A stretch of DNA of 64,000 nucleotides from a virus (IMGVR_UViG_3300028829_003739:4253-68252), one strand, 5' to 3'; counted from the first letter of the stretch, positions 1,154-64,000 are shown. The notes: generated by a model not told the origin, from the sequence alone. A program made the numbers and translations.

Positions 1154-1164
1154 CTTAGGGTTCT

Positions 1165-2638: not shown

Positions 2639-2640
2639 TC

Positions 2641-3033
2641 ATGAGCACAAGCATAGGAAATATAAACTCAATTGTAAGACTAGAAGAAATTCAATTAGCA
2701 GCATCAGATGAAACAACTGATTTAGTTGTAGGTACAGATGCAGTAACTTTTAGAATGCCTTACGGTATGACATTAGAAGACTTAAGAGCTAGTGTTACAA
2801 CAGCACCAGTAGGAGCAGATATACAAGTAACAGTAAATCAAGGAGGTAGTGCAGTAGCATCAGTTATCATAATTGAAGCAGGAGCAACTACAAGTACTTC
2901 AGCTACAACACAACCTACAATAAGTAATTCTAATTTGATTGATGACGCACAAATAACAGTAGATATATCACAAATAGGAAGTACAACTGCAGGTGCAGGA
3001 CTTAAAGTAACCTTAATAGGAAAAAGAGCATAA
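2641..3033 (+). CDS. Tail fibre-associated beta-rich protein
   Basis: SDETTDL..TFRMPY..ITVDISQIGS..GAGLKVTLIG resembles a recurrent phage fibre domain. It is translationally adjacent to ORF 1325. Confidence 0.5.
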   Translation: MSTSIGNINSIVRLEEIQLAASDETTDLVVGTDAVTFRMPYGMTLEDLRASVTTAPVGADIQVTVNQGGSAVASVIIIEAGATTSTSATTQPTISNSNLIDDAQITVDISQIGSTTAGAGLKVTLIGKRA

Positions 3034-3036
3034 ATT

Positions 3037-47925: not shown

Positions 47926-50900
47926 TGGCAGAAGAACAAGAATCATTAGGTTTTGATTTAGGCGCAGAATTAACTCCTCCTAAAATTTCTACATCTAATC
48001 CTTTAGATGTACCAATACCAGAACCTTCTTATAATAAACAAGTTAAGCAACTAGAACAACTAGATGTTAATTTAAAAAATGAAGAATATCAAAATCTATT
48101 AGATGATGTTGAAACTGGTAATTTACCTAATCCTCAAGTAGAAATTACAGATCCTTTATCTATAGATGCTGCAAGAAAGCAGATACAAAATTCATTTACA
48201 TACGGACCTGAAAATGCTAAAGATCCTTTTGGTTTAGCACAAACATTAGACGGTGATTTTAGAGATCCTAAAAAACAAAATACTTTTTATAAAAGATATA
48301 AAGAGCATGGTGCATATGAAGACTTAGGCTTTTCTCCATATAGAGATAATGAAGAATACTATAATGAAAGAACTAGTACTTTTGGTGATTTTGGAAGAGC
48401 ATCAGGACAATGGTGGGAACTAGCTAAATTAGGTTTTAGTGACATGATAGGTATATCAGATATGGATAATCTAGCAGGAGCACGTAAATATGCAGAAGCA
48501 TCAGCTATAGGTTCATCTACTAAAGATGGATTAGGAGCATTTGGTGTAAACACCTTTTTAAACTCAGGTTATACATTAGGTATCATAGGTGAAATGGTAG
48601 TTGAAGAAGCTGCTCTTTTAGGAGTAGAAGCATTAGCTGCTATGGCAGTTCCTGTTACTCTTGGAGCATCAGCTTCAGTTAATGTTGCAGCAGGAGCAAG
48701 AATGGCATATACTGCACAGAAAGGTACAAGAAGAATAGCAAAAGCATGGAAACAAGCAGCTAAGATGCGTAAAACAATGGACGCTATGCAGGATGCTAAT
48801 AAAGCAAGATCTTTCTTTGGTAAATCAATGCAATTTTTAAACCCATTTGAAAACACAACAGCTTTTATAAAAGGTGTTGGTGATATGGGTGACATAGGTA
48901 AACTTACTAAAACTGTAAGAGGTGCCGGAGGATTCATTAGAGATATGCGAGGTATCAGAGGTACTTACAATGAAGCAATCTTAGAAGCTAACATGGTACA
49001 AGATGATATGCATTCAGCAATGTTAGATGACTTTAGAGCTAAACATGGCAGAGCACCTAATGAAGCAGAAGCTCAGGAAATGTTATCTAGTATTAAAAAA
49101 GCTGGTGCAAGTACTGCAATCTGGAATAGTGCTCTTATTGGGGTTACAAATAAATTTACTTTAGGACCATTACTAAGACCAATGAATAGAGGTATAGGTA
49201 TGGGAATGTTTGACTTAGCAAAAACAGGTAGAAAGTTTGTACAGCAATCTTATAAGAAAGGTACGCCTGAAGCTTATAAGTTGTTATCAAGAAACATGTT
49301 TAAAAGAGGTTATGAGTTAGTAAGAAACCCAAGAGCACTTATTGGCAAGTCTTTACTTTACAGTAGCGACAACTTTGCTGAAGGATTACAAGAAGTAGGA
49401 CAAGAAGCAATCTCAGGTTGGCAAAAAGATTACCATACAGCACAGTTTCAAGGTAACGAAGTTAGGGGAGGTTACTATTCATATTTAGCAGACAACTTAG
49501 TAGAGCAAGTAAGCCCACAAGGTTTTGAAACATTTATGTCTGGTTTCTTAATGCAAAAGTTTGTAGCACCTGTTACATCTGCAGGTAGTGCATTAGCAAG
49601 ACCTGATAATTATTCTTCAACAAAAGATTTTTTTACAAATAGAAATAAGTGGAGAGAAGACAGAGCTGAGAATGATGTAAAAGCACAAGAAATTGTAGAT
49701 AACTTAAATAAGTTTTACAAGAATCCTGAAAACTACTTATCAAAAGATTTAATGAGTGCTGTAAGGCAAGGTGAGTATGCAACTATGATGGCAGACGCTG
49801 AAAAAGACGGTGATGTTAAATCATATTATGATGTAAAGGATTCTCAAATGTTTGACAACATTTTACTTGCAATTCAAACAGGTAGACTAGACTCTATGGT
49901 AGGTCAATTAGAAGGTTTAAAAGATCTTACTAATGAAGAAACTCAACAAGAGTACGGTATGGATCAAAGCACCTTTCATGACATGATTGATAAGTCTGTT
50001 AAGAGAGCTAAACATATAGAAAATAGTTATAATGGGTTACAGAAAAAATTTAATAACCCTGTTAACTTTAAACAATATAAGTATGGTAGTCCTGAAAGAG
50101 CTGAAGCTTTTAAAAATCATCAGGCTTGGGAAGCTGCTTTAGGAGATATAGCATTTAATAGCTACTCTTTTACTAGATCTTTAGAAAGAGCTGAATCTAT
50201 CTTAGGTAAAGTAAGTGAAAGTACTGGTTTTAAAAATACCCCTTTAAATGAAATAACTAGCATATTTAGTGTAGGTGAAGTACAAAAAGAATTACAGTTA
50301 TTATCTGCAGAAATAAGTTCTATTGAACAATCTGGTAAAGTAACTCCAGAACTAGGTAAACAAGTAAAAGAAAAAAAAGATAAACAAAAAAAACTTACAA
50401 CTCTTGTTGCTAGTTTAAAAGCTTTAGAAGACGTTACTGAAAACGAAAATGCTGAAGACGTGTACGAAGTAGCAAAAAAAGCATATGAAGATTATATGAC
50501 TTTTATTGCTAAAAAGAATGGTGATCATGCACATAAAGATAAATTAGAAGAATCTTTTAATGAGTTAATAGATTACTACAAGTTAAAAGGTAGAAGTGAA
50601 TCAATGGTAGAAAGGGTAAACCAAATGCTTGACCCTGAAAACTTTATCAATATTCAAAGAAGACTAAAAGATACGTATGATCAAGCCATGGCTATGAGAT
50701 ATGATGAAATCAAAAAGTCTTACAAAGAATATATGAAAGGTAGCACCTTAGATAATAAACTTTTAAATGCTTTAGCTGACATCGGTGTATTCTTAGACGT
50801 AGAAGAACTTAAGAAATTAAAAGAAGAAGGTATCTTTCCTGATGCATTATATTATACTGATCCGGGACAAGGTGGTGAATATGAAGTTGCAAAAACTTCA

Positions 50901-52946
50901 CCCTTGTATAAAAAAGCAGTAGACGTAATTGGTACATACTACGATATAAAAGGAAACATTAGCTTAAGTGAGTTTAAAGAAAACTATAATATATACAAGT
51001 TAGCTTCTCGTAAAAAGAAAGAAGGTGATAACAGAACTTATGATGATATTGCAGCACAGTATGGTTTTGACCCTAAAGCAGAAACAGCTAAAGTTCCTTT
51101 AACTAAAGTACTACAGTCTATAATAGATAGTGAGTTTTCTGACACTAGAGAAAAAGAATTAGCTAAAATATTATTAGCTAAAGCATCTCCAGAAGAATAT
51201 GTTACATTTTCAAAATCAGCAGGCTTACCTTCTAAATATACTGTAGCAGAACAAAATACGGTTAATGCTAAATTTAGTTCTGATAATTACAAGGAAGGTA
51301 AAATAAACAGCCCTATTGAATATTTTATTCTTAATGGTGAAATACAAAGACGATTAAACATAGCATTAGCAGAAGATAAAGACTTTAGAGCAGAGCTAGA
51401 AGGATTAATGAAAGAAGCTCAAGCTGAGTGGAATAAATTATCTCCTGAAGAAAAAGCTATGTATGGTGGTGAAATGTTTGCATTAGAAAATATTGAATCA
51501 TTTGCAGTAGATGCTATGACAAATAAAAGAGTTCAAGCATTTTTAACTACTGTAAAAACAAATCAGACTTTTGAAAATAGTTTATGGAAAAAGTTTGTTG
51601 ATGCTGTCATTAATAACATGTCTAAAATATTAAATATAGCTGCCGTAAATGGTACTGTACTTAATGCAGCTTTAGATGTAATTACTACTAAGATAGATCC
51701 ATCAGGAACAGCTAAGGCTAAAGAAGCTGCTGAAACTACAGGGACTACTGAAAAAGTCACACGAGATATTTCTATTAATGATTTAAAAATTAATCATCCT
51801 GAACTTCTTAATGATCTTATAGAATCTTTTATAGAGTATAATGATAAACAAGTTGCTTTAGGAGAGGATAGTATAATACCAGAAGGAATTAATAAAGCTG
51901 ATATAGCAGGACTTGAAGTATTTAAAAACTATATTTCTAATAGAGAGTTTACTTCTCCAGAAGAAGTCTTTGAAAAATACAATGAAGAATTAGGTGCGCA
52001 AACAGAAACTAGCACAAATGCTACTTTTACACCTACAACTCCTTACGGTACAGAAACAGGTCCAGAAATGACTACAAGCACAGAATCAGTGAATCAAGGT
52101 TTAACAACAGAAGCTCCTAAATCAAAACCTTCTACAGAAGTTAAATTTGTAGCACCTAAGTCTGGAATTGTAACTAGAGCAGTCAAAACTAAACTAAATG
52201 AACTTGGATACAATGAAGTTGAAATTCAAGGAATGGGTAATGCACAAGCTTACGCTATTGCTAATGAAGGCTTAACAAAAGAACAGAGAGCACAGAATGA
52301 TGCACAAATTGATACAGAAGATAGCGCATTAGAAGAAGAACGTCAAGCAGCAAGAGAAGAGATTGAAAGTATTATCGACAAAGCTAAAAATTACAGTGAG
52401 TATGAAAACATGGTAAAGCAAATTAATGATATTATAGCTGACGCTTCAAATCCTTTGTTTTCATTATCTCAATTAAGTATAGATCAGCTTGATGAATTAA
52501 TGAATATAAAGCGTAAATCATTAGCAGAAGATGTTAATTTTGATGATCTTGTAATCGGTGAAGTTGTAATGATACAACGAACAAGCAAGGCAGGTAAAAA
52601 ATACCTTGTATCTGTTAAAGTTTCTGCAAAAGACTCTGACAGCATTACATTAGAATATTTAAATCCTGATAAGAAAGGAAAAATAAATAGCTTTAAAGTT
52701 ATGAAAGATAAAATCAATACCGAGATTAAATATAAATATTCAGAAGCACTTGAAAATTCTGATTTAGATAATGCTGATGATGCAGTATCAGAAGAAGAAG
52801 TAGAAAATGCAAAAGAAACTATTGATAAGTTAGAAGATCTTGAAGATAGTGATACAGTAAATCAAGATAGAGAAGACTCTAAAAACAAGACGCAAGAAGA
52901 AATAGATGCTGCGTTTATTGAAGAAATTAATAATAACTGTGAATAA
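47925..52946 (+). CDS. Large virion cargo protein with hydrophobic helices (DNA-delivery channel candidate)
   Basis: 1673 aa with hydrophobic Gly/Ala segments, an EGLQE..QE motif, coiled coils and a degenerate zincin-like region. Confidence 0.6.
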   Translation: MAEEQESLGFDLGAELTPPKISTSNPLDVPIPEPSYNKQVKQLEQLDVNLKNEEYQNLLDDVETGNLPNPQVEITDPLSIDAARKQIQNSFTYGPENAKDPFGLAQTLDGDFRDPKKQNTFYKRYKEHGAYEDLGFSPYRDNEEYYNERTSTFGDFGRASGQWWELAKLGFSDMIGISDMDNLAGARKYAEASAIGSSTKDGLGAFGVNTFLNSGYTLGIIGEMVVEEAALLGVEALAAMAVPVTLGASASVNVAAGARMAYTAQKGTRRIAKAWKQAAKMRKTMDAMQDANKARSFFGKSMQFLNPFENTTAFIKGVGDMGDIGKLTKTVRGAGGFIRDMRGIRGTYNEAILEANMVQDDMHSAMLDDFRAKHGRAPNEAEAQEMLSSIKKAGASTAIWNSALIGVTNKFTLGPLLRPMNRGIGMGMFDLAKTGRKFVQQSYKKGTPEAYKLLSRNMFKRGYELVRNPRALIGKSLLYSSDNFAEGLQEVGQEAISGWQKDYHTAQFQGNEVRGGYYSYLADNLVEQVSPQGFETFMSGFLMQKFVAPVTSAGSALARPDNYSSTKDFFTNRNKWREDRAENDVKAQEIVDNLNKFYKNPENYLSKDLMSAVRQGEYATMMADAEKDGDVKSYYDVKDSQMFDNILLAIQTGRLDSMVGQLEGLKDLTNEETQQEYGMDQSTFHDMIDKSVKRAKHIENSYNGLQKKFNNPVNFKQYKYGSPERAEAFKNHQAWEAALGDIAFNSYSFTRSLERAESILGKVSESTGFKNTPLNEITSIFSVGEVQKELQLLSAEISSIEQSGKVTPELGKQVKEKKDKQKKLTTLVASLKALEDVTENENAEDVYEVAKKAYEDYMTFIAKKNGDHAHKDKLEESFNELIDYYKLKGRSESMVERVNQMLDPENFINIQRRLKDTYDQAMAMRYDEIKKSYKEYMKGSTLDNKLLNALADIGVFLDVEELKKLKEEGIFPDALYYTDPGQGGEYEVAKTSPLYKKAVDVIGTYYDIKGNISLSEFKENYNIYKLASRKKKEGDNRTYDDIAAQYGFDPKAETAKVPLTKVLQSIIDSEFSDTREKELAKILLAKASPEEYVTFSKSAGLPSKYTVAEQNTVNAKFSSDNYKEGKINSPIEYFILNGEIQRRLNIALAEDKDFRAELEGLMKEAQAEWNKLSPEEKAMYGGEMFALENIESFAVDAMTNKRVQAFLTTVKTNQTFENSLWKKFVDAVINNMSKILNIAAVNGTVLNAALDVITTKIDPSGTAKAKEAAETTGTTEKVTRDISINDLKINHPELLNDLIESFIEYNDKQVALGEDSIIPEGINKADIAGLEVFKNYISNREFTSPEEVFEKYNEELGAQTETSTNATFTPTTPYGTETGPEMTTSTESVNQGLTTEAPKSKPSTEVKFVAPKSGIVTRAVKTKLNELGYNEVEIQGMGNAQAYAIANEGLTKEQRAQNDAQIDTEDSALEEERQAAREEIESIIDKAKNYSEYENMVKQINDIIADASNPLFSLSQLSIDQLDELMNIKRKSLAEDVNFDDLVIGEVVMIQRTSKAGKKYLVSVKVSAKDSDSITLEYLNPDKKGKINSFKVMKDKINTEIKYKYSEALENSDLDNADDAVSEEEVENAKETIDKLEDLEDSDTVNQDREDSKNKTQEEIDAAFIEEINNNCE

Positions 52947-55900
52947 TGGCAAGTTGTAGTGTAAATCCAAAAGTACTAAGAGCTTTAAGAGTAAAGGTTT
53001 TTAGTGAGATAGATAGTAAAGTAGCAGCTAAAGAATCATTTGATATTAATTCATACATGAAAGACATGTATGATTTTATATTTAATGCAAGCAATGACAA
53101 AGCATTAGCACTTGATGCCGTAAGGATGGTGCCTTTATTTGTTGTTCAGCTAGCATCATTAGACAGAACAGTAAGAAAATTAGATGGTGTTGATTTAACA
53201 AAATTAGCAGACATGACTGATGACTTACTTGATAATGAGTTATCAGCTACTGAAAAAATTCTAGGATTAGCACAAGGAGAAGAAGTTAAAAAAAAATTAA
53301 AACATCTTAATCAAGATAATTCTGTAGAACCTGCTAAAGTAAAATCTAAAAAAGAAGTAAATCCAGACTTTAAAGGTAAAATTGTTTACATAACAATGGG
53401 ATCTGGTAAATCTGAATTTGCAGAAAACTATGAAGGTGTTATTGACGCAGATAGAATTAAAGTGCGTGTAATAGGAAGAACTGAATGGGGAATAAATAAT
53501 CCTAAGAAAGATCAAGAAACTGATGCTGAATACATTGGTAGATATTCTTATGACCCTTCAGTATTAAGCACTGCAGAAGTAAATAAACAAACTTTAGATT
53601 TATTAAAAGAATATGCTAATAGAGGTTTTACTGTATTAACAGGTACTAAAAAACTTATACCTGAAGCTGATATAGTTATTATTACATCTCAAGGTGTCGC
53701 TAATAGAATAGAAGACCCTGTACAACAAGCTGCTTTTAAACAAGATGAAGCTAGATATACATCTAGTAAAAAGAACGTTATCTATTCTGATAAGTTTGCA
53801 GAAGATATTCTTTTTAAATCTTTGCCTGTAGAAGAGGTTGCAGAAGAAGTAGTAGATGATATCACTACACCTGCAGCACCTAAACAAACTATAGCTGGTA
53901 TTAGACCTGTACAAAGTATATCTTTAAAAGAAGCTAATGAAGAAAGTATATCTGCTATACCAGGTACATTTAGATCTACAAACCCTATTGAATCTCCAGG
54001 TAATGACTTTAGCTTTAAAGTACAACGTAAACTACTTACGTTGCTAGAAGAGCAAGGTGTATCTGATATGTCAGAGGTTGAAAGCGAAATGGAAAAAGGA
54101 TTTTACATTTCAATTAAAAGATCTAAAGATGTAAGTTCTGATATAAACTCTGATACAACACCTTTTGTATATGTTATTACTGATAAAAACGGTGCAATTA
54201 CAGAATTTAATGATGATTTAACTCCTGTTATTATAGGGGGTAAACCTGCATATTTTAATATTCAAAAGTATGACGGTAAAAATTCTAAAGGTCAGTTATC
54301 AAAAAGAGATAGCACATTTGTAAGCAAGCTTTTAAAAAACTTAATGTCCTTAACAGGAATGTCAGCAACCGCAGCTAAAGAAGTTAGAGGTCCAGAAGCA
54401 GCTGAAATGCAAAAGGTATTAGACTATATTAAAGCTAATCCTAATGCAAACATAGTTTATAATATTACAGGTGGTTCTAAAGGCATTATAGTTGCATCTA
54501 CAGAAAAAAAACAGAGAACATCTCCTAGTCAATTTAAAAATGTTACTGGAGAGAAGTTTGCAATAGGTCAAATTTTAAAGCCATCACAAATATTAGATCA
54601 AAAAGATCCTGTTAAAAATGTTGTTTATTATACTAATGATCAATTAGGCGGTGTCTATATTGAATTAAAGAGAGAACCATATAGAGAAATAAATAATGGA
54701 GTTTCTATACGAAGCACAATTGATTTAATTGTAGAAGATATTTACGATGAGAAAGGTAAGTTATTAAACGGATATGATAAAATAGCAGAGTTACAAAAAA
54801 CTCTTAATGTAAATAACGTTAACGGTATTAAAATTACAGTAGATAGAGATACTAAAGAATTTACTCTTTCATTAAATGATTGGAGTGATCAAAACTTTGG
54901 AGTTACAACTGTCTTTGATTTATCAAATGATGACGGTAAAATGCAAGCAAGAATAGCTCTTCAGAACTATCTAGAAGCAAACGTTTACAAAAAGAATTAT
55001 CCTGTTTCAGAAGCAAACTTTAACAACAAGGCTTATGAAGAAAATAAAAACTTATACCGTGTTGAACTAAATGAAGAAACTGGTAGACGAGTATTACTAG
55101 ATAGCGGTGTATCTTATATAGACTATTTAAAAAACAATATGTCTTTGACTGCTGTTCCAAATACAGAGTCAGGGAATATCGTAACAAGTAATTCATTCTT
55201 TACTCTACAATTATCAGATGATTCTATAACAGAAGTATTTGAAGAAAAGAAAAAAGAGCAAGAGAAAGAAGAAGCAGTTGTTGAAATTAAAAAAGAAATA
55301 GATACAACAACTCAAGAGCCATCTAATGATGTGTCAGATGACGAATTATTTAGAACATTAGATGTAAGAAATAGAAGTAAGCAAGCAACACAAAAACAAA
55401 TAGAAGACGCTGAAGCTTGGTATAACCAAAGTGAATTAAGTAAGTACATTCCTTTTAAAGGTATGTTTGATCTTGTAAATAGTAAGAATCCTGATGCTGT
55501 TGCATCATGGGCTACAAGTGGTATTACTTTATTTAAAGGTTCTGACTTCTCTGATTTATATCATGAAGCTTGGCATGGATTTACACAAACGTTTATGACT
55601 AAGGATCAAAAGAAATCTTTGTATTCTGAAGTACGTAAAAAGAGTGGTAATTTTATGGACCATAATGGTAACAGAGTAAGATTTACAAAAGCTACAGATT
55701 TACAAATAGAAGAGTATTTAGCAGAGTCATTTAGAAATTACATGTTATCTGATCAAAAAGCTTTAAAAGGATCTCCTAAACAAAACTCTTTTTTCAGAAA
55801 GATCTATAACATTTTAAAATCTTTATTTTCTGATTCTTCATATAAAGATGTTGTTACTGATGAGTCAGTTGACTACAAAGTAAATGAGTTATTTAACAAA

Positions 55901-58900
55901 CTAAGAGTTGGTGATATAAAAGAGTATAGCTTCTCTTTACAAAATGCATCTTTTAACTCATTAAACAAAGGTCCTAAAGCTATTGAAACAAGGACTGATG
56001 GTATTACTGAACTTAACTTTCAAGATGCCTTAGATGGTGTAAACATGATAGATTACTTTATATCAGAGTTTATCACATTTGAAAACGCAGCTCTTAATCC
56101 AGAACAAAGAGAAGAATATATTAAGCATGCTAAAGTATCTAAAGAAGATATTAATAACATGACTAAAGCAGAAAAGCTAGCATACAAAAATATGTCTGAT
56201 AGCTTTATGCCTACAAAATATTCTGGTTTAAGTAAAGTATTAAAAGATCCTACTGCAGCATATAAACATGCTAAAAGCAGATTAGAAGATGTATTAGTAG
56301 AACTTAATGATCAAAAGAAAGCTGCTACTGATCCTGGACAGATTGCTTCTTTGCAAAATAAGATGCAAACTATAGAATGGATGATATCTGAGTTTGGTAA
56401 TACTGACAATATTAAAAGAAATCTTACAGAGTCTAATGAAGATGTAAAAGGTATGATTGGGTATCATATGAAGCATACCAAGTTTTATCAAGAACAACTA
56501 GAAGAAATTGACTTTGAAAATGTAAACGAAGATGACATTACAGCTAATTCACAAAGATCTGGTATTGATAGAAAAGGTAATGAATCTTCTCATGTAGATG
56601 ATGCTAAACCTGAAGTATTATATTTATTTCAATCTATTGTTGATAGAAGTAAGCTTAACAAATACGGTATACCTGTAAAAGCAAGCTGGCGTGAAAACTT
56701 TGTAAAAGTGATTAGAGCTACTGAGAATGCACAAACATTACAAGAATGGGCACCTAAGTTTCTTGAACTAGCTAAAAAGGATCCTCAAATTAGACAAATT
56801 ATTGAAAAAATTGGTAGTCCTTTAAGTACAAATGCTAATACTCCTGAAACAAACATGTGGACAAACATTTGGCAAACATTTAATAAAAGTAGAGTTGGTT
56901 TTATACAAGCAACAACTACTACATCTATTAATGAAGAAGGAGATCTTGTTGTAAATACTAATGTTGGTCAAGCATTAACAGATGAAGGTAAGCTATCAAG
57001 AAATTGGGATACTTTATTTCAAAGTGGTAATTCTATAGATCAAACATACGTTTTATACGATGATCAAGGAGCATATGTAAATATGCCTAAAGTATTAAAA
57101 GCATTTCCTAATCTTAATTCAGCTAAAGAAAATTCATTTGAATTCTTTAGAGCATTGGGTATGAGCTTATCTGACATACCAGAAATAAAAACCGCACTTA
57201 AAAAAGGTGACTATAGAGTAGATAAATATTACGAATACATAACTGATGCAAAGAATCAAAAATATAAAGTCAGAAAACCTTCAGATATAACTTTTGATTT
57301 ATCAAAGATTTATAAAAAGCTTTTAAACTTAGAAGGAGAATACTCTAACTTGTTTACAAACTTTGCAAGGTTAAATGCTGAAAACAATGTTCAATATGAA
57401 CATTCATTAAATAACTTTTTAACTACAGTTACAAATGCTATAAACAACGTAAACTCATATGATGAGTTAATAGCTTTACCTTATATGGAAAGGTATAACG
57501 TTGATACAAATCCTTTTATTAAAAACTCAGTATGGTTTAACTCCATCTTTGATATGAATAATGGAGGAATAAAAAGGCAGGACGTAAGTTTAGAGTTATA
57601 CAATATAGCTGGTAGTAAAGTAATAGAAGAAGGAGTTGCTTCTGCAAAAGCTGATGAGTCAACTAAGTTTAATTTAGATGTTAATTTAATTTTATCAGGT
57701 TATCCTGAATTACCAAGACACTCTGATAAAAGTACTTCTTACGGTATTAGAATTAACGGAAAACTATACGGAGGACAAACAGCTGCTGATACCTATGTAT
57801 CTATAAATGATATTGCTCAAGGTGATACTCAAATGTATAGTAAGCTTAACGAAAGAATATTACCTATACTAGAAGCAGAGTTATCTAGAATTAGAACTTT
57901 AAATAGTTATTCTGATGATATTATGTATGATCACTCTTATGTTAAGGATGGTCAAGAAATTCAAATTTTTGATGATATCTTAAGTGAATCAACTGTTAAG
58001 AAATTAAAAGCTTTAGCTATATCAAAAGAAGGTTATAAAACAGCATTAGATACTAATCAAGATAATATTGTTGATACTATACAAGAAGAAGTACAGGAAT
58101 ATTTTGAATGGCTAATAAATAAAGATGGTAAAACACCTATGAATGAAATAGGTATATTATCTGATAACTTAAGAAAAACTATTTTAAGTAAACTTATTGC
58201 TAATAAACAACCTACAGATAGACAAAGTATTTTAGATGTTGCTTCTAAAGGATATGTAATCAACGGCTGGTTAAACAATGTAGAATCTACTATGTTTTTA
58301 TATGGAGATCCTGCACAATATGATCATGCAAAACAAGGTTTTCATAAACGTAATGCTGGAACAGGATCTACTGGTACAATATACCGTACTGATGATATTA
58401 TAGCAGGTGTAATAGATAAATTAAATGGTATAAGAAGTTATGCTAAAACAATAGGTGCTGAACCAAATAAATTTACAGGTTCAATGAATACAGCTGTTGT
58501 AGAAGATAATGAAATAGCATCTATATACTATAAAGAGCTTGTAAAATCATTAGGTAGCGAAGAAAAAGCTGCAGATTATTTAAAGCAAAATGAAGGAGAT
58601 GCTCAAGGTCTTATTACTATTGATGCATATAGAGAGTTAAAAGTTTCTCAAGGTACTTGGACTAATGATCATCAGCTTATGTACTCAAAAGTAATCGAAG
58701 GAAAAAGTATTGCAGCTGAAGATGTAGAATCTTTCTTTCCTGTTATCAAAGGACAGTACTGGGGGCAAATAGCTACAGATGGTAAGTTACCATTAAATGC
58801 ATTCCATAAATACTCATTGTACCCATTAATTCCTACAGTAATTAAAGGAACTAATGCTCAAATAGTACATGACAGAATGGTTAGAGAAGGTATATCTTAT

Positions 58901-61900
58901 TTAACATTTGAATCAGGATCTAAAGTAGGTAACATCACAACTAAATCTGGCTTTGATAAATTATATAATGACAAGCAAAATAAATCTTTAGTTGAAGAAA
59001 TTAAAAGTAAAGATGTATCTACACCTTATTTTACTAAAAACACTATAAGACTAGAGTACCTAAAAGATCAATTATATATTGCTGATACAGATAAGAATAA
59101 AGTAATCTTCTCTACACAATTAAGAAAATTAGTAGAAGACGGATTATTTGTAAACGGTGTACCAAAGTCATTTGAAGAGGGAATGATTAACACAAACCCT
59201 GAAGAAAGAGTAAGAAAGTGGAGAGCTACTAAAGACAAGACTAAGTATCTTGAATATAAGTTAGCAAAAGAATATGAAGAGTTAATTGATAAGTTATCTA
59301 ACTTAAATAAGGCAAAATTATTTAAACAGATAGGTTATTCTGGTACAGGAGAATTAACACTAGCTTCTAGAAAAGCTCTTGTCAAATTAGCTAAGAATGA
59401 ATTAGAAAGAAAAGATGTAGGGTTTCATAGAATTGAAGCTTTAAATAATTCTAACTCTGATCTATCAACAACACTGGATGCAGAAACAATTGATAAGGTT
59501 ATTAATTCATTAATAGAAAAACGATTAGTAAAACAAAAAGTAACTGGTGAATCCTTAGTACAAGTAGCAACTACACTAATGGAAAAATCAGATTCAGCTA
59601 CTGACATTAATTTTAAAACCCCTACAGCAGAAGACTTTGAAAAGTATGATGCTAAGAACTTGCCTTTCTATATACCAACTCCTGAAGGAACAAAAGCAAT
59701 GAAAGTTAAAGTTGCTTTACGTAGAGATTTTCAAAACTTACTTGAGTTTAAAGATTTAGATGGTAATAAAATTAGAAATATAGATAGACTCAATGAGCTG
59801 ATTAAGAATGATAAATGGCTCAACAAAGATAATAACCGTGCTGCAATAACTATGATTGGTGTAAGAATTCCTGTACAGGGTATGAACTCTATGGAGGTTA
59901 TGGAAGTATATGAATTCTTACCAGAAGAAGCAGGTAACGTTATAATACCTCCTACAGAAATCGTAACTAAATCAGGAGCTGATTTTGACGTTGATAAAAT
60001 GACAATCATGATGCCGAGTATTGGTCTTGATGTACAACGTGCTAAACTTAGTGATAGTTTTATTAAACAGTTAGATAATGTATATCCTGACTTAGATTTT
60101 AGCAGAATGAATCTTGACATTATATTTGATACTGTTAAGAATGATGGTGAAGTATCAGCTTTATCTGTAGAAGATAAAGAAATATTAGATATCATAGAAA
60201 GCTATACTACTGTTGATGGTTTTTACAATACTGGTAATACTATACCAGGTGTACAAAATGATTTGATTAGTAAAATGCAAGAGATAATATCTTTACCACA
60301 AAACTATGAATCATTAGTTACTCCAAACAGTACTAACATTTTTACAGAAGCTCAGGATGGTTTAGATAAATCATTAGTAGAAGAAGCAGCAATGTATAAT
60401 CTTACTGGATATGATGTTAACGACTCATTTAGAGATAAGAAAAGAAAGCGTCCTTCAAGTGGTAGAAGTATGATGTCACCTACAAAGATATTTGAACCTG
60501 GTTATAATATGGCTAAGCATCAATATAATAAAGTAGGTAAAGAAGTATTAGGTTTAGGTGCAGTTGATAATACATATAATGTATTACTTAACAGAATCGG
60601 TTTAGTAATGACTCCGCAAAATATGTCTGATGCTTTAATGGCTGATATAGCATCTGAAATATCAGCATTAGAAAGTAAAAAAAGAAAATCAGCTGTAGAT
60701 TATCTTGAGCTTAGGGATTTAAGAAAAGAACAAGCTCAGTTTAGAAAACATAGATTACTTCTTAGTCATAATAAAGTAGGTGAAGGTATTAGTTTATCAT
60801 CTGAATTTAGTAAAGGAACAGATACAAAAATATCTGATGTAATTAACCAATTAATTAACGGATGGGTAGATGTTGCTGCTGATGCATGGATATTTGATAT
60901 TCAAGGTAATAAAGAATTATCACCAGCTTTACTATTTATGGTACAAGCAGGAGTTCCTGTAAGAGAAGCTGTACTATTTATCTCTAACCCGCTTATTCAA
61001 AAGTATGCTATAAAAGCTAGACAGTATTCTAGTCCACAAACTTTGACAAATCAAAGTGAAATGCAAAACTTTAATAAAACTAGATTTAGATCTTTAGCAG
61101 CTAAGTCAATAATGGGTGAAATCGGATTTGACATAGATGTTGACAGTCCAGCGTATGAAGTTACAGCTGTTAGAGAAGATAAAATGAAAACTAGAAGTAA
61201 AAACTTTACTATAGAAAGCATGAAAAGTGACTTAGAAAGATATAAAAACTCTAAGGACAAATCTTCTTATAAATATAGTGATAATGAAATAGCAGGATTC
61301 TTACACTTCTTACAAATACAAGAGATGTCTAATCATGTTCGTGATATCAAAATGTCTACAAACGTTGATACATCAAAAGATGGTACTAGTGTAGAGGCAA
61401 GAGCAAGATTAGCTAAGCTTAATAATTTAGCTGAAAACGTATTTGAACAGGATGTTGTAAATCAATTTCAAAGAGAAACACCTATTGGTGCATTCTTTAA
61501 TTCTGAATTACAAATTAATCTTCTAGAAGGTTTATTACCATTCAGAAATGATAGAGCAATATATAGTTCTATTCAAGGAGTTATTGATTCTGATGAGATG
61601 AAAGCAGTAAATGCTGACAGAAATAAAAGAATTAGAATTTTACTTAATGATTTTAATAATTACGTTTTTCAAAATGAATTAAGATATTTTGATGCAGATA
61701 ATATAAAATCATATAGAGGATATAAGATAAGTAAGTCTGTTCCTAAAGATGTAAAAGAAACACCTGGTTTTGAATATGGGTTATTAATTAAGGACGGTAC
61801 AATATATTTGAATATTCCTGCACTAAAAAAACAGTATGCAACTGCTGAATATAATAGTAATAAATATAATAGTAAGTATGGTTTAGCAAAAATTCAAAAT

Positions 61901-64000
61901 GCAAATCAGTTTACAGATGTAAATGAATACATACATTTTGTATTGCAAAGAGAAGTTTTAAGATCTCAAAATCCTATAAACGAAGATCTTTACATGTCAG
62001 AAAAGTTTCAATACATTCATAATCATGTTAAAAAAACATTTAATAAACAATCTACGGAAGATAACAAAGCGTATAACTTAAGAGTTATAAGTTATGCTTA
62101 TGAAACGTATCTAAGAGAAGAAGCGTTAAGAGGTATTTATAATCATATGAATTTATTTACTGCAAATACAAATGCATTTCATAATGCTTATGCAGATGAT
62201 TTTATGAGAATAAAACAAAACTTCCCTGAATTACAAGAACTTAGTATATTCCAAGAGTTGCAATTAGCACCAATGAAAGAAGGTGATAAGCGTTATAACT
62301 TAATATTTAGAGATGCTAAGTTAGATGGTGACATGATTAATGTGTTAAATGAAAACTTAAAAAATCTAACAGACCTAAATTATTTAAATGACACATTAGA
62401 AAATGTAAGTCAGAGAGATAAACAAGACATTGTTAAATATTTTGAGCAATTTCCTATAGTAGCTTTTTTACAATCAGGATTTGAATCATCAGGAGCTTAT
62501 TCAATTAATAGAATAGTTGATCAAGATAAGATACAAGCTGTATTAGAAGAGCCTGTTTCAAAATTAAAAACTTTATTTACTAATATTAAGAAAGAAGGTG
62601 AGCAAGGTTTAGAAGCTACAGAAATATTTGGTCGTTACTTTAGCCCATTTATATCTAAATTTACTAGAAATAGAAATTCTAAAAATTATGGTAATGCTGT
62701 AAGAGGTATAAACTATAACAGTAGTTTAAGTATTACTGATACTAACAGTTTAGAAGATGCAACTGAATTAACTTCTGAACAAGAGTATTTATTAGATCCA
62801 AAAGAAGTTAATGATCCTTTACTAAATGTAACTATAGACATTCCTAATTATGATATAGATAGATCACTTACTATGCGTGATGGTACTAAAGTTTTAGCGG
62901 TAACAAGAGGTGGTGTAAAAATTATACTTAATCCTGTAGAATCTGTAGAAGAATTCTTTAGTTATTTTAAAGGTAATATTCCTAGTCCTACATCAGCACA
63001 AAAAGGTGTTGTTTTATCTGAATTAGAAAAAGCAGGATATCCTTTAGATAGACTTGAAAGAATAATTGATACAGTAGAAAAAGCAAATCTATTCCTTGTC
63101 TTACATGAAAACAGTCACGTAAAATACAAGGACGCTGTAAACTATTACAAGAATGGACAAGACCTACTAACGCCTGATAAAATAGCTATAGAAGTAAGAG
63201 CATCAATTGACGCATTACAGGCTATAGAATCATTGCCTCAACCTAAAATAGATTCTGTAATACCAGAGTCAAGTCAATTAGATATAGCTCAGCTATTAAC
63301 AAACGGTCTTGTTAATACAGCCGGTTTAGAAAAAATTGATGTTGAGGATGCAGAAGTATTTACAAAACAAATCTTTGATCAAAAAGAATCCCAAGAAGTC
63401 TTTGACATGATTGAACAGATGTATGAAGATACTTATGATACAGAACATAAAGCAGGAGATGGTAAATTTGGTGCAAGAAGAAGAAGCATGTATTTTTCTG
63501 ACAGACCTTACACTTATTCTGGTACAACAAAACCTGTAAATGCTGGATCTCCTGAACTACAAACTTTAGTAGCAAAAATAACTAAAGACTTAGGCTTCAG
63601 TGAAGGTTACTTTGATATGGTCCTTATCAATGAGTATAAAGACGGTACACAAAAAATAGGATTCCATACAGATAATGAACCTATACTTAATAATAAAGGT
63701 AAGTTAAATCCTTCTGTAGTAACTATAAGCTTCGGAGATGAAAGAACAATGGTATTAAAAGGAGCAGGTAAAACTCACAAAATACCTATGGCATCAGGAT
63801 TAGGTTTAATAATGGGTAAAGACGGTCAAATCAATTACAAGCATGGTATTCAAGCTGAGCAAAGTAAAGGAAAGAGATTTAGTATTACACTTAGACATAA
63901 TGCTGATAAAAGTAGAGGAGTTGATAAAGTTATCCAACCATCCCCAACACAAACTAGTGAGGTTAATTTAGGTTTTAAACTTTCAATAGATAAAACAGGT
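52946..64000 (+). CDS. Giant virion-packaged RNA polymerase polyprotein (partial, at least 3685 codons): P-loop, zincin, two-barrel RNAP, zincin, AlkB
   Basis: ATG 52946 overlaps the previous stop (TAATG). All motifs are in the same frame: GSGKS (~53400), HEAWH (55562), EGDAQG (58592), RIPVQG...SGADFDVDK (D at 59981), HENSH (63104) and AlkB HTD/H/RxxxxxR (63665-63900). Its absence from the ORF track is consistent with no stop before the window end. Confidence 0.88.
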   Translation, partial: MASCSVNPKVLRALRVKVFSEIDSKVAAKESFDINSYMKDMYDFIFNASNDKALALDAVRMVPLFVVQLASLDRTVRKLDGVDLTKLADMTDDLLDNELSATEKILGLAQGEEVKKKLKHLNQDNSVEPAKVKSKKEVNPDFKGKIVYITMGSGKSEFAENYEGVIDADRIKVRVIGRTEWGINNPKKDQETDAEYIGRYSYDPSVLSTAEVNKQTLDLLKEYANRGFTVLTGTKKLIPEADIVIITSQGVANRIEDPVQQAAFKQDEARYTSSKKNVIYSDKFAEDILFKSLPVEEVAEEVVDDITTPAAPKQTIAGIRPVQSISLKEANEESISAIPGTFRSTNPIESPGNDFSFKVQRKLLTLLEEQGVSDMSEVESEMEKGFYISIKRSKDVSSDINSDTTPFVYVITDKNGAITEFNDDLTPVIIGGKPAYFNIQKYDGKNSKGQLSKRDSTFVSKLLKNLMSLTGMSATAAKEVRGPEAAEMQKVLDYIKANPNANIVYNITGGSKGIIVASTEKKQRTSPSQFKNVTGEKFAIGQILKPSQILDQKDPVKNVVYYTNDQLGGVYIELKREPYREINNGVSIRSTIDLIVEDIYDEKGKLLNGYDKIAELQKTLNVNNVNGIKITVDRDTKEFTLSLNDWSDQNFGVTTVFDLSNDDGKMQARIALQNYLEANVYKKNYPVSEANFNNKAYEENKNLYRVELNEETGRRVLLDSGVSYIDYLKNNMSLTAVPNTESGNIVTSNSFFTLQLSDDSITEVFEEKKKEQEKEEAVVEIKKEIDTTTQEPSNDVSDDELFRTLDVRNRSKQATQKQIEDAEAWYNQSELSKYIPFKGMFDLVNSKNPDAVASWATSGITLFKGSDFSDLYHEAWHGFTQTFMTKDQKKSLYSEVRKKSGNFMDHNGNRVRFTKATDLQIEEYLAESFRNYMLSDQKALKGSPKQNSFFRKIYNILKSLFSDSSYKDVVTDESVDYKVNELFNKLRVGDIKEYSFSLQNASFNSLNKGPKAIETRTDGITELNFQDALDGVNMIDYFISEFITFENAALNPEQREEYIKHAKVSKEDINNMTKAEKLAYKNMSDSFMPTKYSGLSKVLKDPTAAYKHAKSRLEDVLVELNDQKKAATDPGQIASLQNKMQTIEWMISEFGNTDNIKRNLTESNEDVKGMIGYHMKHTKFYQEQLEEIDFENVNEDDITANSQRSGIDRKGNESSHVDDAKPEVLYLFQSIVDRSKLNKYGIPVKASWRENFVKVIRATENAQTLQEWAPKFLELAKKDPQIRQIIEKIGSPLSTNANTPETNMWTNIWQTFNKSRVGFIQATTTTSINEEGDLVVNTNVGQALTDEGKLSRNWDTLFQSGNSIDQTYVLYDDQGAYVNMPKVLKAFPNLNSAKENSFEFFRALGMSLSDIPEIKTALKKGDYRVDKYYEYITDAKNQKYKVRKPSDITFDLSKIYKKLLNLEGEYSNLFTNFARLNAENNVQYEHSLNNFLTTVTNAINNVNSYDELIALPYMERYNVDTNPFIKNSVWFNSIFDMNNGGIKRQDVSLELYNIAGSKVIEEGVASAKADESTKFNLDVNLILSGYPELPRHSDKSTSYGIRINGKLYGGQTAADTYVSINDIAQGDTQMYSKLNERILPILEAELSRIRTLNSYSDDIMYDHSYVKDGQEIQIFDDILSESTVKKLKALAISKEGYKTALDTNQDNIVDTIQEEVQEYFEWLINKDGKTPMNEIGILSDNLRKTILSKLIANKQPTDRQSILDVASKGYVINGWLNNVESTMFLYGDPAQYDHAKQGFHKRNAGTGSTGTIYRTDDIIAGVIDKLNGIRSYAKTIGAEPNKFTGSMNTAVVEDNEIASIYYKELVKSLGSEEKAADYLKQNEGDAQGLITIDAYRELKVSQGTWTNDHQLMYSKVIEGKSIAAEDVESFFPVIKGQYWGQIATDGKLPLNAFHKYSLYPLIPTVIKGTNAQIVHDRMVREGISYLTFESGSKVGNITTKSGFDKLYNDKQNKSLVEEIKSKDVSTPYFTKNTIRLEYLKDQLYIADTDKNKVIFSTQLRKLVEDGLFVNGVPKSFEEGMINTNPEERVRKWRATKDKTKYLEYKLAKEYEELIDKLSNLNKAKLFKQIGYSGTGELTLASRKALVKLAKNELERKDVGFHRIEALNNSNSDLSTTLDAETIDKVINSLIEKRLVKQKVTGESLVQVATTLMEKSDSATDINFKTPTAEDFEKYDAKNLPFYIPTPEGTKAMKVKVALRRDFQNLLEFKDLDGNKIRNIDRLNELIKNDKWLNKDNNRAAITMIGVRIPVQGMNSMEVMEVYEFLPEEAGNVIIPPTEIVTKSGADFDVDKMTIMMPSIGLDVQRAKLSDSFIKQLDNVYPDLDFSRMNLDIIFDTVKNDGEVSALSVEDKEILDIIESYTTVDGFYNTGNTIPGVQNDLISKMQEIISLPQNYESLVTPNSTNIFTEAQDGLDKSLVEEAAMYNLTGYDVNDSFRDKKRKRPSSGRSMMSPTKIFEPGYNMAKHQYNKVGKEVLGLGAVDNTYNVLLNRIGLVMTPQNMSDALMADIASEISALESKKRKSAVDYLELRDLRKEQAQFRKHRLLLSHNKVGEGISLSSEFSKGTDTKISDVINQLINGWVDVAADAWIFDIQGNKELSPALLFMVQAGVPVREAVLFISNPLIQKYAIKARQYSSPQTLTNQSEMQNFNKTRFRSLAAKSIMGEIGFDIDVDSPAYEVTAVREDKMKTRSKNFTIESMKSDLERYKNSKDKSSYKYSDNEIAGFLHFLQIQEMSNHVRDIKMSTNVDTSKDGTSVEARARLAKLNNLAENVFEQDVVNQFQRETPIGAFFNSELQINLLEGLLPFRNDRAIYSSIQGVIDSDEMKAVNADRNKRIRILLNDFNNYVFQNELRYFDADNIKSYRGYKISKSVPKDVKETPGFEYGLLIKDGTIYLNIPALKKQYATAEYNSNKYNSKYGLAKIQNANQFTDVNEYIHFVLQREVLRSQNPINEDLYMSEKFQYIHNHVKKTFNKQSTEDNKAYNLRVISYAYETYLREEALRGIYNHMNLFTANTNAFHNAYADDFMRIKQNFPELQELSIFQELQLAPMKEGDKRYNLIFRDAKLDGDMINVLNENLKNLTDLNYLNDTLENVSQRDKQDIVKYFEQFPIVAFLQSGFESSGAYSINRIVDQDKIQAVLEEPVSKLKTLFTNIKKEGEQGLEATEIFGRYFSPFISKFTRNRNSKNYGNAVRGINYNSSLSITDTNSLEDATELTSEQEYLLDPKEVNDPLLNVTIDIPNYDIDRSLTMRDGTKVLAVTRGGVKIILNPVESVEEFFSYFKGNIPSPTSAQKGVVLSELEKAGYPLDRLERIIDTVEKANLFLVLHENSHVKYKDAVNYYKNGQDLLTPDKIAIEVRASIDALQAIESLPQPKIDSVIPESSQLDIAQLLTNGLVNTAGLEKIDVEDAEVFTKQIFDQKESQEVFDMIEQMYEDTYDTEHKAGDGKFGARRRSMYFSDRPYTYSGTTKPVNAGSPELQTLVAKITKDLGFSEGYFDMVLINEYKDGTQKIGFHTDNEPILNNKGKLNPSVVTISFGDERTMVLKGAGKTHKIPMASGLGLIMGKDGQINYKHGIQAEQSKGKRFSITLRHNADKSRGVDKVIQPSPTQTSEVNLGFKLSIDKTG

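What the first reader, a model, noticed from the sequence alone, without database searches (positions are those of the whole stretch)
63330..63900. Intact AlkB-family 2OG-Fe(II) dioxygenase fused to the virion RNA polymerase
Seen: in frame with DFDVD, the ORF reads ..RRSMYFSDRPYTYSG..FDMVLINEYKDGTQKIGFHTDNEP..VVTISFGDERTMVL..IPMASGLGLIMGKDGQINYKHGI..RFSITLR. This has all the ALKBH2/3-type signatures (YxYSG, NxY, HxD, SFG, distal H, RxxxxxR). Established: crAss-like phages (e.g. phi14:2 gp66) package and inject this RNAP, and AlkB-replicase fusions are known in plant RNA viruses. Inference: the phage injects an oxidative demethylase tethered to its polymerase, to repair alkylated template or transcripts or to undo a host base-modifying defence at the first step of infection.
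Basis: partly seen in the sequence, partly recalled or inferred. Interest (0 to 1): 0.75.

Follow-up and report, generated by a model that had tools for sequence, protein, structure and literature searches.

The report
AlkB repair module on phage virion RNA polymerase
A marine crAss-like phage carries an intact AlkB-type DNA/RNA demethylase as a swappable module at the tail end of its giant, virion-type RNA polymerase gene, so the enzyme may enter the host cell with the phage DNA.

Summary
One uninterrupted ORF (52946-64000, 3685 codons) runs off the end of the contig. It contains a crAss-type virion RNA polymerase core: PDB 6VR4 (phi14:2 gp66) matches at E=6e-26, with DFDVD aligned to gp66's DFDID. 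Residues 3445-3662 (nt 63278-63931) form a complete AlkB domain. Pfam PF13532 scores 74 bits against a cutoff of 31.2. The AlphaFold model has pLDDT 86.5 and its best structural matches are ALKBH2 and ALKBH3. The HxD...H iron triad and the RxxxxxR motif are intact.

The domain behaves as an exchangeable cassette. It is 47-76% identical in giant proteins whose backbones are at most 31% identical or not alignable. The two closest backbones (44% identity) carry a different AlkB-like domain or a RecD-like helicase at that position. In three independent marine datasets, contigs bridge the 5' junction, and near-identical strains diverge exactly at its 3' edge. Some AlkB-like domain is present in 15 of 120 listed polymerase relatives; others carry NADAR, ART-PolyVal or helicase modules.

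Delivery into the host and the function are inferred, not shown. Repair of alkylated template or transcripts at entry is my preferred reading. I found no prior report of this fusion. I rate it a new variant of known kinds.

The parts
52946..64000 (+). Giant ORF, 3685 codons, open at the 3' end (cut by the end of the contig): vRNAP-type polyvalent protein
   Evidence: Collinear at 44% identity with P0158 (residues 1-3338) and P0159 (residues 1-3444).
55562..55576 (+). HEAWH motif (zincin-like HExxH) in the N-terminal part. The same YHEA[WF]H motif occurs in 6 of the 9 AlkB-bearing giant proteins (P0002, P0003, P0005, P0006, P0010; plus P0016 and P0017).
   Evidence: Regex. Pfam gives no hit for this region. 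The function of the motif was not tested.
58118..61036 (+). Region aligned in three blocks to the phi14:2 gp66 RNA polymerase (PDB 6VR4)
   Evidence: E=6.2e-26. Query residues 1725-1999, 2290-2403 and 2597-2697 align to gp66 839-1085, 1319-1434 and 1579-1681.
59981..59995 (+). DFDVD, the catalytic DxDxD motif of the two-barrel RNAP
   Evidence: Aligned to gp66 DFDID; regex.
62891..63277 (+). Small, mostly helical domain with an invariant HExxH (HENSH at 63104-63118). It lies between the RNAP body and the AlkB cassette.
   Evidence: Shared with 5 other giant proteins. H, E and H are invariant. AF2 pLDDT 84.6. No Pfam hit and no structural match.
63278..63931 (+). AlkB cassette (residues 3445-3662). 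It consists of a conserved LDIAxLLTNGLV leader plus a complete ALKBH2/3-like Fe(II)/2OG dioxygenase domain (Pfam envelope 63368-63895).
63665..63673 (+). H3574-T-D3576: the HxD of the Fe(II) facial triad
   Evidence: Invariant in alignment A1. Aligned to the HxD of ALKBH3.
63842..63844 (+). H3633: the distal His of the Fe(II) triad
   Evidence: Invariant in A1. Only a synonymous variant was seen among the listed sites in other strains.
63875..63895 (+). R3644-FSITL-R3650: the RxxxxxR 2-oxoglutarate-binding motif
   Evidence: R3650 is invariant and R3644 is conserved in at least 90% of A1. Present in all 9 giant homologues.
63932..64000 (+). First 23 codons of whatever follows the cassette. Near-identical strains in three other studies carry different sequence from exactly here on.
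   Evidence: table 7: the same loose end begins behind 63931 in X3, X6 and X9.

Best explanation
Shown:
- The window encodes a crAss-type virion RNA polymerase (vRNAP) homologue of at least 3685 residues.
- Its variable C-terminal tail contains a complete, catalytically intact AlkB (ALKBH2/3-like) Fe(II)/2-oxoglutarate dioxygenase.
- This module is a cassette with sharp boundaries. It has moved between very different vRNAP backbones and shows no stop, indel or catalytic-residue change among the listed variant sites.

Inferred:
- Like gp66 of phi14:2, the whole protein is packaged in the capsid, threaded into the host with the DNA and refolds there. Fe(II), 2-oxoglutarate and O2 are available in the host cell.
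- The AlkB module then removes alkyl groups from Watson-Crick positions (lesions of the 1-methyladenine / 3-methylcytosine type). Its substrates would be the incoming phage DNA where it is single-stranded for vRNAP, and possibly the first transcripts.
- Such lesions would come from damage the virion collected outside a cell, where nothing can repair it.
- Tethering puts the repair enzyme on the template before any phage gene is expressed and without relying on a host AlkB.
For: Identity of the domain:
- Pfam PF13532, 74 bits against a cutoff of 31.2.
- AF2 model with pLDDT 86.5 and pTM 0.84.
- Foldseek top hits are ALKBH2 (E=2e-14, TM 0.70/0.77) and ALKBH3.
- The profile of the module and its relatives matches ALKBH3 at 7e-60 and ALKBH2 at 5e-50, against E. 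coli AlkB at 2e-12.
- All metal and 2OG ligands are conserved.

Fusion to the vRNAP:
- One ORF.
- 6VR4 matches at E=6e-26 with the DxDxD motif aligned.
- TerL, portal and major capsid genes lie upstream.
- Contigs from 3 of 3 independent runs laid (X3, X6, X9) bridge the 63277/63278 junction, with no indels.

Recurrence and selection:
- 9 of 9 giant homologues keep the catalytic motif.
The first standalone-size full-length one scores 87 bits, against 98-355 bits for those 17.
- Of 19 listed strain variants in the module, 11 are synonymous, none is a stop, and none changes a catalytic residue.

Mechanistic fit:
- gp66 is translocated into the host and transcribes single-stranded or denatured DNA efficiently, but not native duplex (bioRxiv 10.1101/2020.03.07.982082, passages).
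- 1-meA and 3-meC arise preferentially in single strands.
- AlkB domains kept inside unprocessed plant-virus replicase polyproteins repair such lesions, and have spread among viruses by recombination (PMC2553587, passages).
Against: - No experiment or proteomic datum exists for this protein. Packaging, ejection, refolding and activity are all by analogy.
- The protein is truncated by the contig end, so its full architecture is unknown.
- A small HExxH domain lies directly upstream (62891-63277). If it is a protease, the module could be cut off.
- Sibling vRNAPs carry NADAR, ART-PolyVal or helicase modules in the same tail. In the literature those modules point to host conflict rather than housekeeping repair, so the theme of the tail favours the counter-defence rival.
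- Only 15 of the 120 listed vRNAP relatives have any AlkB-like domain, so it is an accessory, not a requirement of vRNAP function.
- Substrate (DNA or RNA, single or double strand, which adduct) cannot be read from the sequence.
Confidence: 0.45

Rival explanations
1. Counter-defence eraser. The ejected AlkB module removes alkyl or methyl groups that a host enzyme puts on phage DNA or RNA (or on a host nucleic acid) as part of an immune response. This would parallel the way NADAR reverses DarT1 guanine ADP-ribosylation.
For: - The same tail position in sibling vRNAPs holds NADAR: PF08719 in 8 of 120 listed relatives. In L002/P0003 NADAR sits directly after the same AlkB cassette.
- The tail also holds ART-PolyVal and RecD-like helicase modules (8 of 120).
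- NADAR enzymes reverse DNA guanine ADP-ribosylation, and phages use orphan NADAR-like enzymes against DarTG1 (PMC11543638 and PMC11825919; search listing and abstracts only).
- Cassette-like exchange and a strain-level breakpoint at the module edge are typical of arms-race genes.
- Iyer et al. suggested that sporadic phage AlkBs reset methyl marks rather than repair damage (PMC7824862, passage).
Against: - I know of no bacterial defence that alkylates phage bases at AlkB-reversible positions, and none came up in my searches. I did not search for one specifically.
- Among solved structures the domain is closest in sequence and fold to bona fide damage-repair enzymes (ALKBH2/3).
Confidence: 0.25
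2. Host or phage reprogramming by demethylation of regulatory marks. The module would erase enzymatic methylation (for example m6A, or m1A/m3C in tRNA, rRNA or mRNA, or DNA 6mA) to alter host translation, or to expose host DNA to its own restriction enzymes. It would not be repairing damage.
For: - Other AlkB-family members are RNA or 6mA-DNA demethylases and appear among the weaker structural and profile matches: ALKBH5, ALKBH1, NMAD-1, ALKBH8.
- Plant-virus AlkB domains are linked to m6A removal (PMC9452765; listing and abstract only).
- The suggestion by Iyer et al..
Against: The best matches by a wide margin are ALKBH3 and ALKBH2, not ALKBH5, ALKBH1 or ALKBH8: 7e-60 and 5e-50 against 1e-9 to 8e-13.
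Confidence: 0.1
3. Not delivered. The tail is cleaved off during maturation (for example by one of the HExxH domains), or the AlkB part is made separately. In either case it works late in the infected cell on replicating phage DNA, like an ordinary phage-encoded repair gene.
For: - Two HExxH motifs are in the protein, one directly upstream of the cassette.
- The gp66 paper discusses possible cleavage or refolding of domains on activation (passage in the section on regulation).
Against: - There is no stop, and no start codon at the module boundary, which begins at Leu3445.
- The module is almost never found as a standalone gene. The near-length search gave 1 hit, a 171-aa fragment on a 974-base contig.
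- This makes little sense if the fusion were irrelevant to its role.
Confidence: 0.1
4. Artefact or dead domain: a chimeric assembly joining an AlkB gene to the RNAP gene, or a decayed non-catalytic remnant.
For: The record is an incomplete metagenomic contig (57% complete, linear) that ends 69 bases after the module.
Against: - Contigs of three independent studies bridge the junction.
- At least 12 giant ORFs on other contigs carry the same module type.
- All catalytic residues are intact and conserved.
- The module's GC (0.33) is like the rest of the gene (0.26-0.33).
Confidence: 0.02

Closest known systems
Human ALKBH2 / ALKBH3 (and their standalone prokaryotic and viral relatives), Pfam PF13532
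   Same: - Same fold: Foldseek E=2e-14, TM 0.70/0.77.
- Same HxD...H iron triad, RxxxxxR, and the YxYSG, NxY and SFG motifs.
- The profile matches ALKBH3 at 7e-60 and ALKBH2 at 5e-50.
   Different: - Only 22-24% identical to ALKBH2/3.
- Embedded in a protein of at least 3685 residues rather than standing alone.
- Carries a conserved LDIAxLLTNGLV leader that is modelled with low confidence.
- Not an orthologue of E. coli AlkB: NCBIfam NF011930 gives 20.9 bits against a cutoff of 267.
AlkB domains inside replicase polyproteins of plant RNA viruses (Flexiviridae, Closteroviridae and others)
   Same: - An AlkB domain translationally fused to the virus's own polymerase polyprotein.
- Spread among viruses by recombination.
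- Active on 1-meA/3-meC while remaining part of the polyprotein (PMC2553587, passages).
- These domains are structural matches of the model (Vitivirus, GLRaV and other replicases).
   Different: - Those are RNA-dependent replicases of eukaryotic RNA viruses, made after entry.
- Here the partner is a DNA-dependent two-barrel RNAP of a dsDNA phage, and homology suggests it is pre-packaged in the virion.
Cellulophaga phage phi14:2 gp66, the crAss-like virion RNA polymerase (PDB 6VR4)
   Same: Three aligned blocks including the DxDxD catalytic motif, E=6e-26. The gene sits downstream of the structural genes.
   Different: - The 6VR4 chain has 2194 residues, and only RNAP blocks of the query align to it.
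- The window's protein has about 880 extra N-terminal residues and a modular tail.
- tblastn of the cassette against 50,697 phage records found 1 weak hit: 28.5% identity, in an uncultured 595-kb phage. I did not check that phi14:2 is among those records.
Polyvalent proteins of phages and conjugative elements (Iyer et al. 2017, PMC5512222)
   Same: Giant multi-domain proteins delivered with the DNA, built from shuffled enzymatic modules. ART-PolyVal (PF18760) is found in the tails of the sibling proteins P0006 and P0158.
   Different: The main text of that paper has 0 occurrences of AlkB, 2OGFeDO, dioxygenase, demethylase or NADAR. Its supplements could not be read. Here the scaffold is the crAss-type vRNAP.
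Orphan NADAR-type anti-DarTG1 enzymes of T4-like phages
   Same: The same logic: a phage enzyme that directly reverses a base adduct on phage DNA. NADAR modules occupy the same vRNAP tail, next to the AlkB cassette in L002/P0003.
   Different: A different enzyme family and chemistry. Those are separate genes (PMC11825919; listing and abstract only).

Membership tests
AlkB family (Pfam PF13532, 2OG-FeII_Oxy_2) | Score above the curated Pfam gathering threshold over the whole profile | tested here: met
   74 bits against a cutoff of 31.2, profile positions 6-194 of 194.
AlkB family (Pfam PF13532, 2OG-FeII_Oxy_2) | Double-stranded beta-helix fold with the AlkB-type N-terminal extension | tested here: met
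   AF2 pLDDT 86.5. Foldseek hits to ALKBH2 and ALKBH3 at E=2e-14 to 2e-13, TM 0.66-0.79.
AlkB family (Pfam PF13532, 2OG-FeII_Oxy_2) | HxD...H Fe(II) triad and the Arg pair that binds 2-oxoglutarate | tested here: met
   H3574, D3576, H3633, R3644 and R3650 are present. They are invariant or conserved in at least 90% of 70 sequences.
AlkB family (Pfam PF13532, 2OG-FeII_Oxy_2) | Fe(II)/2OG-dependent oxidative dealkylation of nucleic-acid bases | not testable with these tools
   Needs an enzyme assay.
E. coli AlkB orthologues (NCBIfam NF011930, equivalog) | Score above the equivalog cutoff | tested here: not met
   20.9 bits against a cutoff of 267. E. coli AlkB structures rank 41st in Foldseek and score 2e-12 against the profile.
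crAss-like virion RNA polymerase (gp66 type, two-barrel RNAP) | Sequence homology to gp66, including the DxDxD metal-binding motif | tested here: met
   6VR4 at E=6.2e-26 in three blocks; DFDVD aligned to DFDID.
crAss-like virion RNA polymerase (gp66 type, two-barrel RNAP) | Two double-psi beta-barrel fold | not tested
crAss-like virion RNA polymerase (gp66 type, two-barrel RNAP) | Presence in the virion and translocation into the host | not testable with these tools
   Shown only for gp66 of phi14:2 (bioRxiv 10.1101/2020.03.07.982082).
crAss-like virion RNA polymerase (gp66 type, two-barrel RNAP) | Genome context: a large gene downstream of the crAss-type structural module | tested here: met
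   TerL 7876-10083, portal 10084-12852 and major head protein 14342-15970 by PHROGs. Six large ORFs follow, then this gene.
Polyvalent proteins (Iyer et al. 2017) | A giant phage protein combining several unrelated enzymatic modules in variable order | tested here: met
   In this protein: RNAP, two HExxH motifs and AlkB. Siblings add NADAR, ART-PolyVal, M78 peptidase and RecD-like helicase. Module and backbone are incongruent.

The most novel reading that the evidence does not exclude
The crAss-type virion RNA polymerase of marine phages is a delivery scaffold for pre-made 'eraser' enzymes of nucleic-acid base adducts (AlkB types, NADAR). On this reading the AlkB cassettes answer a still undescribed bacterial defence that alkylates or methylates Watson-Crick positions of incoming single-stranded phage DNA or early RNA, the alkylation counterpart of DarT ADP-ribosylation. 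The cassette would then be a handle for finding that defence.
Probability: 0.2. Interest if true: 0.85.

Novelty: new variant of a known kind. Interest (0 to 1): 0.6.

Why it matters
Virion-packaged polymerases are the first phage enzymes to act in the host. Finding that a whole clade of marine crAss-like phages hangs exchangeable base-adduct-reversing modules (AlkB, NADAR) on that polymerase suggests that chemical modification of the incoming genome is a real barrier in the first minutes of infection, whether it comes from environmental alkylation or from host attack.

It gives a DNA-phage counterpart to the AlkB-replicase fusions of plant RNA viruses. It adds AlkB to the repertoire of polyvalent ejected proteins. 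It also supplies a compact, testable domain (218 residues) for biochemistry, and for asking whether alkylation-based anti-phage defence exists.

I found no prior description. Full-text searches pairing AlkB with crAss-like, crAssphage, virion RNA polymerase, polyvalent proteins, or bacteriophage plus virion-packaged, and Crassvirales with dioxygenase, gave nothing relevant. Most subscription-journal papers are not in the searched library, and supplements could not be read.

Tried and rejected
- **Several independent captures of AlkB by vRNAPs.** Bit scores suggested this: type 1 scores 57-87 bits against standalone AlkBs but only 23-33 bits against type 2, and does not detect type 3. The quick ML tree of 70 domains does not support it. 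Types 1 and 2 join at SH-aLRT 83 (unstarred), type 3 sits on a very long branch, and the standalone set needs only one change (support 29), so a single origin is not ruled out. I leave the number of captures open. The standalone rows were the 45 best hits of the type-1-centred profile built from A1, which is a biased sample.
- **HExxH mini-domain (62891-63277).** No Pfam hit at E<=1. No Foldseek match at E<=0.001. The best VIA-align Z is 4.9, within the noise for helical models. Its nature (protease or not) is unresolved.
- **N-terminal regions.** The segment around a P-loop-like GSGKS and the segment around HEAWH gave no Pfam hit at E<=1.
- **Upstream ORFs.** The six large ORFs at 31909-52943 gave no Pfam hit, and 47925-52943 gave no PHROG hit.
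- **Cultured or deposited phages.** tblastn of the cassette against 50,697 records gave 1 weak hit.
- **A close standalone version.** The near-length word search gave only a 171-aa fragment.
They give no evidence on expression.
- **A paper id recalled from memory** (meant to be the 2018 crAss-like family paper) is not held. That paper was therefore not checked.
- **Not attempted:** substrate preference (ss or ds, DNA or RNA) from ALKBH2- or ALKBH3-specific loops. My knowledge of those residues is recalled and would not be a test.

Full report
**What is there**

The window is the last 64,000 bases of a 68,252-base linear IMG/VR virus record estimated to be 57% complete. Nearly all of its genes are on the + strand. 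By PHROGs they include a large terminase (7876-10083), a portal (10084-12852) and a major head protein (14342-15970). Six large ORFs without any Pfam hit follow at 31909-52943.

Then comes one ORF from 52946 to the last base of the window: 3685 codons, no stop, open at the 3' end. The window end is the contig end, so the protein is truncated by the assembly.

**The polymerase**

phmmer of the whole product against PDB sequences gives the phi14:2 gp66 'DNA-dependent RNA polymerase' (6VR4) at E=6.2e-26. Three collinear blocks align: query 1725-1999, 2290-2403 and 2597-2697. GADFDVDKM aligns with gp66's GSDFDIDKM.

A search with residues 1700-2700 found 442 giant proteins. The best 120 were listed, at 35-58% identity and 2061-5278 residues. 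The two best, P0158 and P0159, are collinear with the window's protein at 44% identity over residues 1-3338 and 1-3444.

Runs that hold the last 2 kb are labelled marine or seawater metagenomes and come from 14 studies. I therefore read this as a marine crAss-like phage and its vRNAP-type gene.

According to the gp66 preprint (passages seen), gp66 is a virion component. [quoted passage not shown]

**The AlkB domain**

The evidence that it is an AlkB domain:
- Pfam PF13532 matches at E=2.5e-20, 74 bits (cutoff 31.2), over profile positions 6-194 of 194.
- PHROG 21963 'alkylated DNA repair' matches at E=1e-12.
- The E. coli AlkB equivalog model scores only 20.9 bits against a cutoff of 267.
- An AlphaFold2 model built on a 70-sequence alignment has mean pLDDT 86.5 and pTM 0.84.
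- Its best Foldseek matches in the PDB are ALKBH2 (E=2e-14, TM 0.70/0.77) and ALKBH3. E. coli AlkB ranks 41st.
- The profile of the alignment matches ALKBH3 at 7e-60, ALKBH2 at 5e-50 and E. coli AlkB at 2e-12. That profile is dominated by the standalone relatives.
- H3574, D3576, H3633 and R3650 are invariant. R3644, the YxYSG tyrosines and N3562 are conserved in at least 90% of sequences.

**A cassette, not just a domain**

The module's relatives are almost all in giant proteins:
- A region search restricted to proteins of 2026-6449 residues found 9 giant proteins with the module at 47-74% identity.
- All 9 keep HxD...H...RxxxxxR, and 7 of the 9 have a G[AS]DxDxD motif.
- A filter-free scan of 1.84 billion representatives gave 1700 hits at E<=0.001, but only 6 at E<=1e-30.
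The first standalone-size full-length AlkB follows at 87 bits.

Module and backbone disagree:
- The cassette is 72% identical to that of P0002 and 74% to that of P0004. P0002's backbone aligns to the window's over only about 100 residues at 31%. P0004's does not align at E<=1e-5.
- The 44%-identical backbones P0158 and P0159 lack this cassette. P0158 has a different AlkB-like domain (PF13532, 32.1 bits) followed by ART-PolyVal (32.5 bits). P0159 has a RecD-like helicase.
- In the domain tree the window's cassette pairs with P0002's (SH-aLRT 95).

The boundaries are sharp:
- The 5' edge is sharp. In P0001-P0005 similarity begins at the same LDIAxLLTNGLV motif (residue 3445, nt 63278), after unrelated sequence.
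- The 3' edge is a breakpoint even between strains. Contigs from three other studies (X3, X6, X9; 95-99% alike) follow the window up to 63931, which is a codon boundary. All three then continue with the same different sequence. The first 30 letters printed are in frame and without a stop, by my own reading.
- The same three runs each have a contig bridging the 63277/63278 junction by at least 39 letters on the shorter side, and no indels were reported.

The fusion is therefore not an assembly artefact.

Of the 19 variant sites listed inside the module, 11 are synonymous and 8 are not. None is a stop and none changes a catalytic residue. 29 further sites in the laid stretch were not listed by the tool.

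**The tail is a toolbox**

Among the 120 listed vRNAP relatives, the precomputed Pfam labels show:
- PF13532 in 7
- NADAR (PF08719) in 8
- RecD-like helicase domains (PF13604) in 8
- ART-PolyVal in 1

My own phmmer runs on those sequences found a second AlkB type in 5 and a third in 7 strongly plus 3 weakly. That makes 15 of 120 with some AlkB-like domain, and none with the window's type.

In the complete locus L002, the same cassette is followed by NADAR inside a 3856-codon ORF. In L003 it is followed by about 1170 more residues, with a sub-threshold ART-PolyVal match.

Whether the AlkB types were captured once or several times is unresolved. Bit scores suggested several captures. The quick tree does not exclude one.

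**How it most likely works**

Shown: an intact AlkB module is translationally tethered to a gp66-type polymerase, it recurs, it shows no stop, indel or catalytic-residue change among the listed variants, and it has been exchanged between backbones.

Inferred: the protein is packaged and ejected as gp66 is, and it refolds in the host where Fe(II), 2-oxoglutarate and O2 are available. The module then dealkylates bases on the incoming genome where vRNAP needs it single-stranded, or on the first transcripts.

This fits three established facts read in PMC2553587:
- 1-meA and 3-meC form preferentially in single strands.
- AlkB repair needs no template.
- Plant-virus AlkB domains work while part of the replicase polyprotein and spread by recombination.

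I put repair of pre-existing alkylation damage at 0.45. I put reversal of a host-inflicted modification (the NADAR-like logic; abstracts only) at 0.25, erasure of regulatory methyl marks at 0.10, cleaved or not delivered at 0.10, and artefact or dead domain at 0.02. The remainder is unassigned.

**Comparison with what is known**

The domain is a member of the AlkB family (Pfam threshold, fold and ligands all met). It is not an orthologue of E. coli AlkB (tested, not met). The host protein is a member of the gp66-type vRNAP family by sequence; its fold and its presence in virions were not tested.

The arrangement works like the AlkB-replicase fusions of plant RNA viruses and like the polyvalent ejected proteins of Iyer et al. 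2017. That paper's main text never mentions AlkB, dioxygenase or NADAR (supplements not readable).

Full-text searches found nothing relevant. They paired AlkB with crAss-like, crAssphage, virion RNA polymerase, polyvalent proteins, or bacteriophage plus virion-packaged, and Crassvirales with dioxygenase. For the Crassvirales search I read passages in three of the six listed papers. Most subscription-journal papers are not in that library. An id that I recalled for the 2018 crAss-like family paper was not held, so that paper was not checked.

**Verdict**

It is a new variant of known kinds: a virion-type phage RNA polymerase used as a scaffold for a mobile AlkB cassette.

Still open:
- the missing C-terminus
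- proof of packaging and ejection
- the substrate
- the role of the upstream HExxH mini-domain, for which no family or fold match was found

Noticed in passing
window 62891-63277: A small, mostly helical domain with an invariant HExxH (HENSH at 63104-63118) sits between the RNAP body and the tail modules. It is shared with 5 other giant proteins: P0168, P0180, P0251, P0159 and P0229. The model is confident (pLDDT 84.6), but there is no Pfam, Foldseek or VIA-align match. It may be a new zincin-like domain that processes the tail.
   Followed up: partly
window 63931-64000: Near-identical strains from three other studies diverge from the window exactly at the 3' edge of the AlkB cassette. The window's contig, and the corresponding contig of the likely source run, both end 69 bases later. 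The assembly probably broke on strain-level variation in the tail modules.
   Followed up: partly
window 31909-52946: Six consecutive large ORFs (1267, 1030, 927, 1130, 866 and 1673 aa) directly upstream of the vRNAP gene have no Pfam hit. The last also has no PHROG hit. They are candidates for tail or ejected cargo proteins.
   Followed up: partly
window 53336-53845 (around residue 150 of the giant ORF): A P-loop-like ITMGSGKSEF motif lies in the N-terminal extension, which gp66 lacks. Pfam gives no hit. One relative, P0208, carries AAA_33/KTI12-type kinase domains by precomputed Pfam.
   Followed up: partly
P0165 (protein), residues 2236-2417: In this vRNAP relative the type-2 AlkB domain lies N-terminal to the DxDxD motif (residue 2530). 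It is therefore inserted within the polymerase body rather than in the C-terminal tail.
   Followed up: no
P0229 (protein): A 3558-aa vRNAP homologue is named by NCBI as a hypothetical protein of a Candidatus Hodarchaeales (Asgard archaeon) MAG. This is probably a phage contig binned into the MAG.
   Followed up: no
window 4573-5475 and 6550-7368: An endolysin (Amidase_2 plus peptidoglycan-binding domain) and a PD-(D/E)XK nuclease lie upstream of the terminase gene.
   Followed up: no
L002 11735-17719; L003 14198-20035: In both complete related loci the giant AlkB-bearing ORF is followed immediately by another ORF of about 1950-1994 codons. The window's contig ends before any such gene.
   Followed up: no
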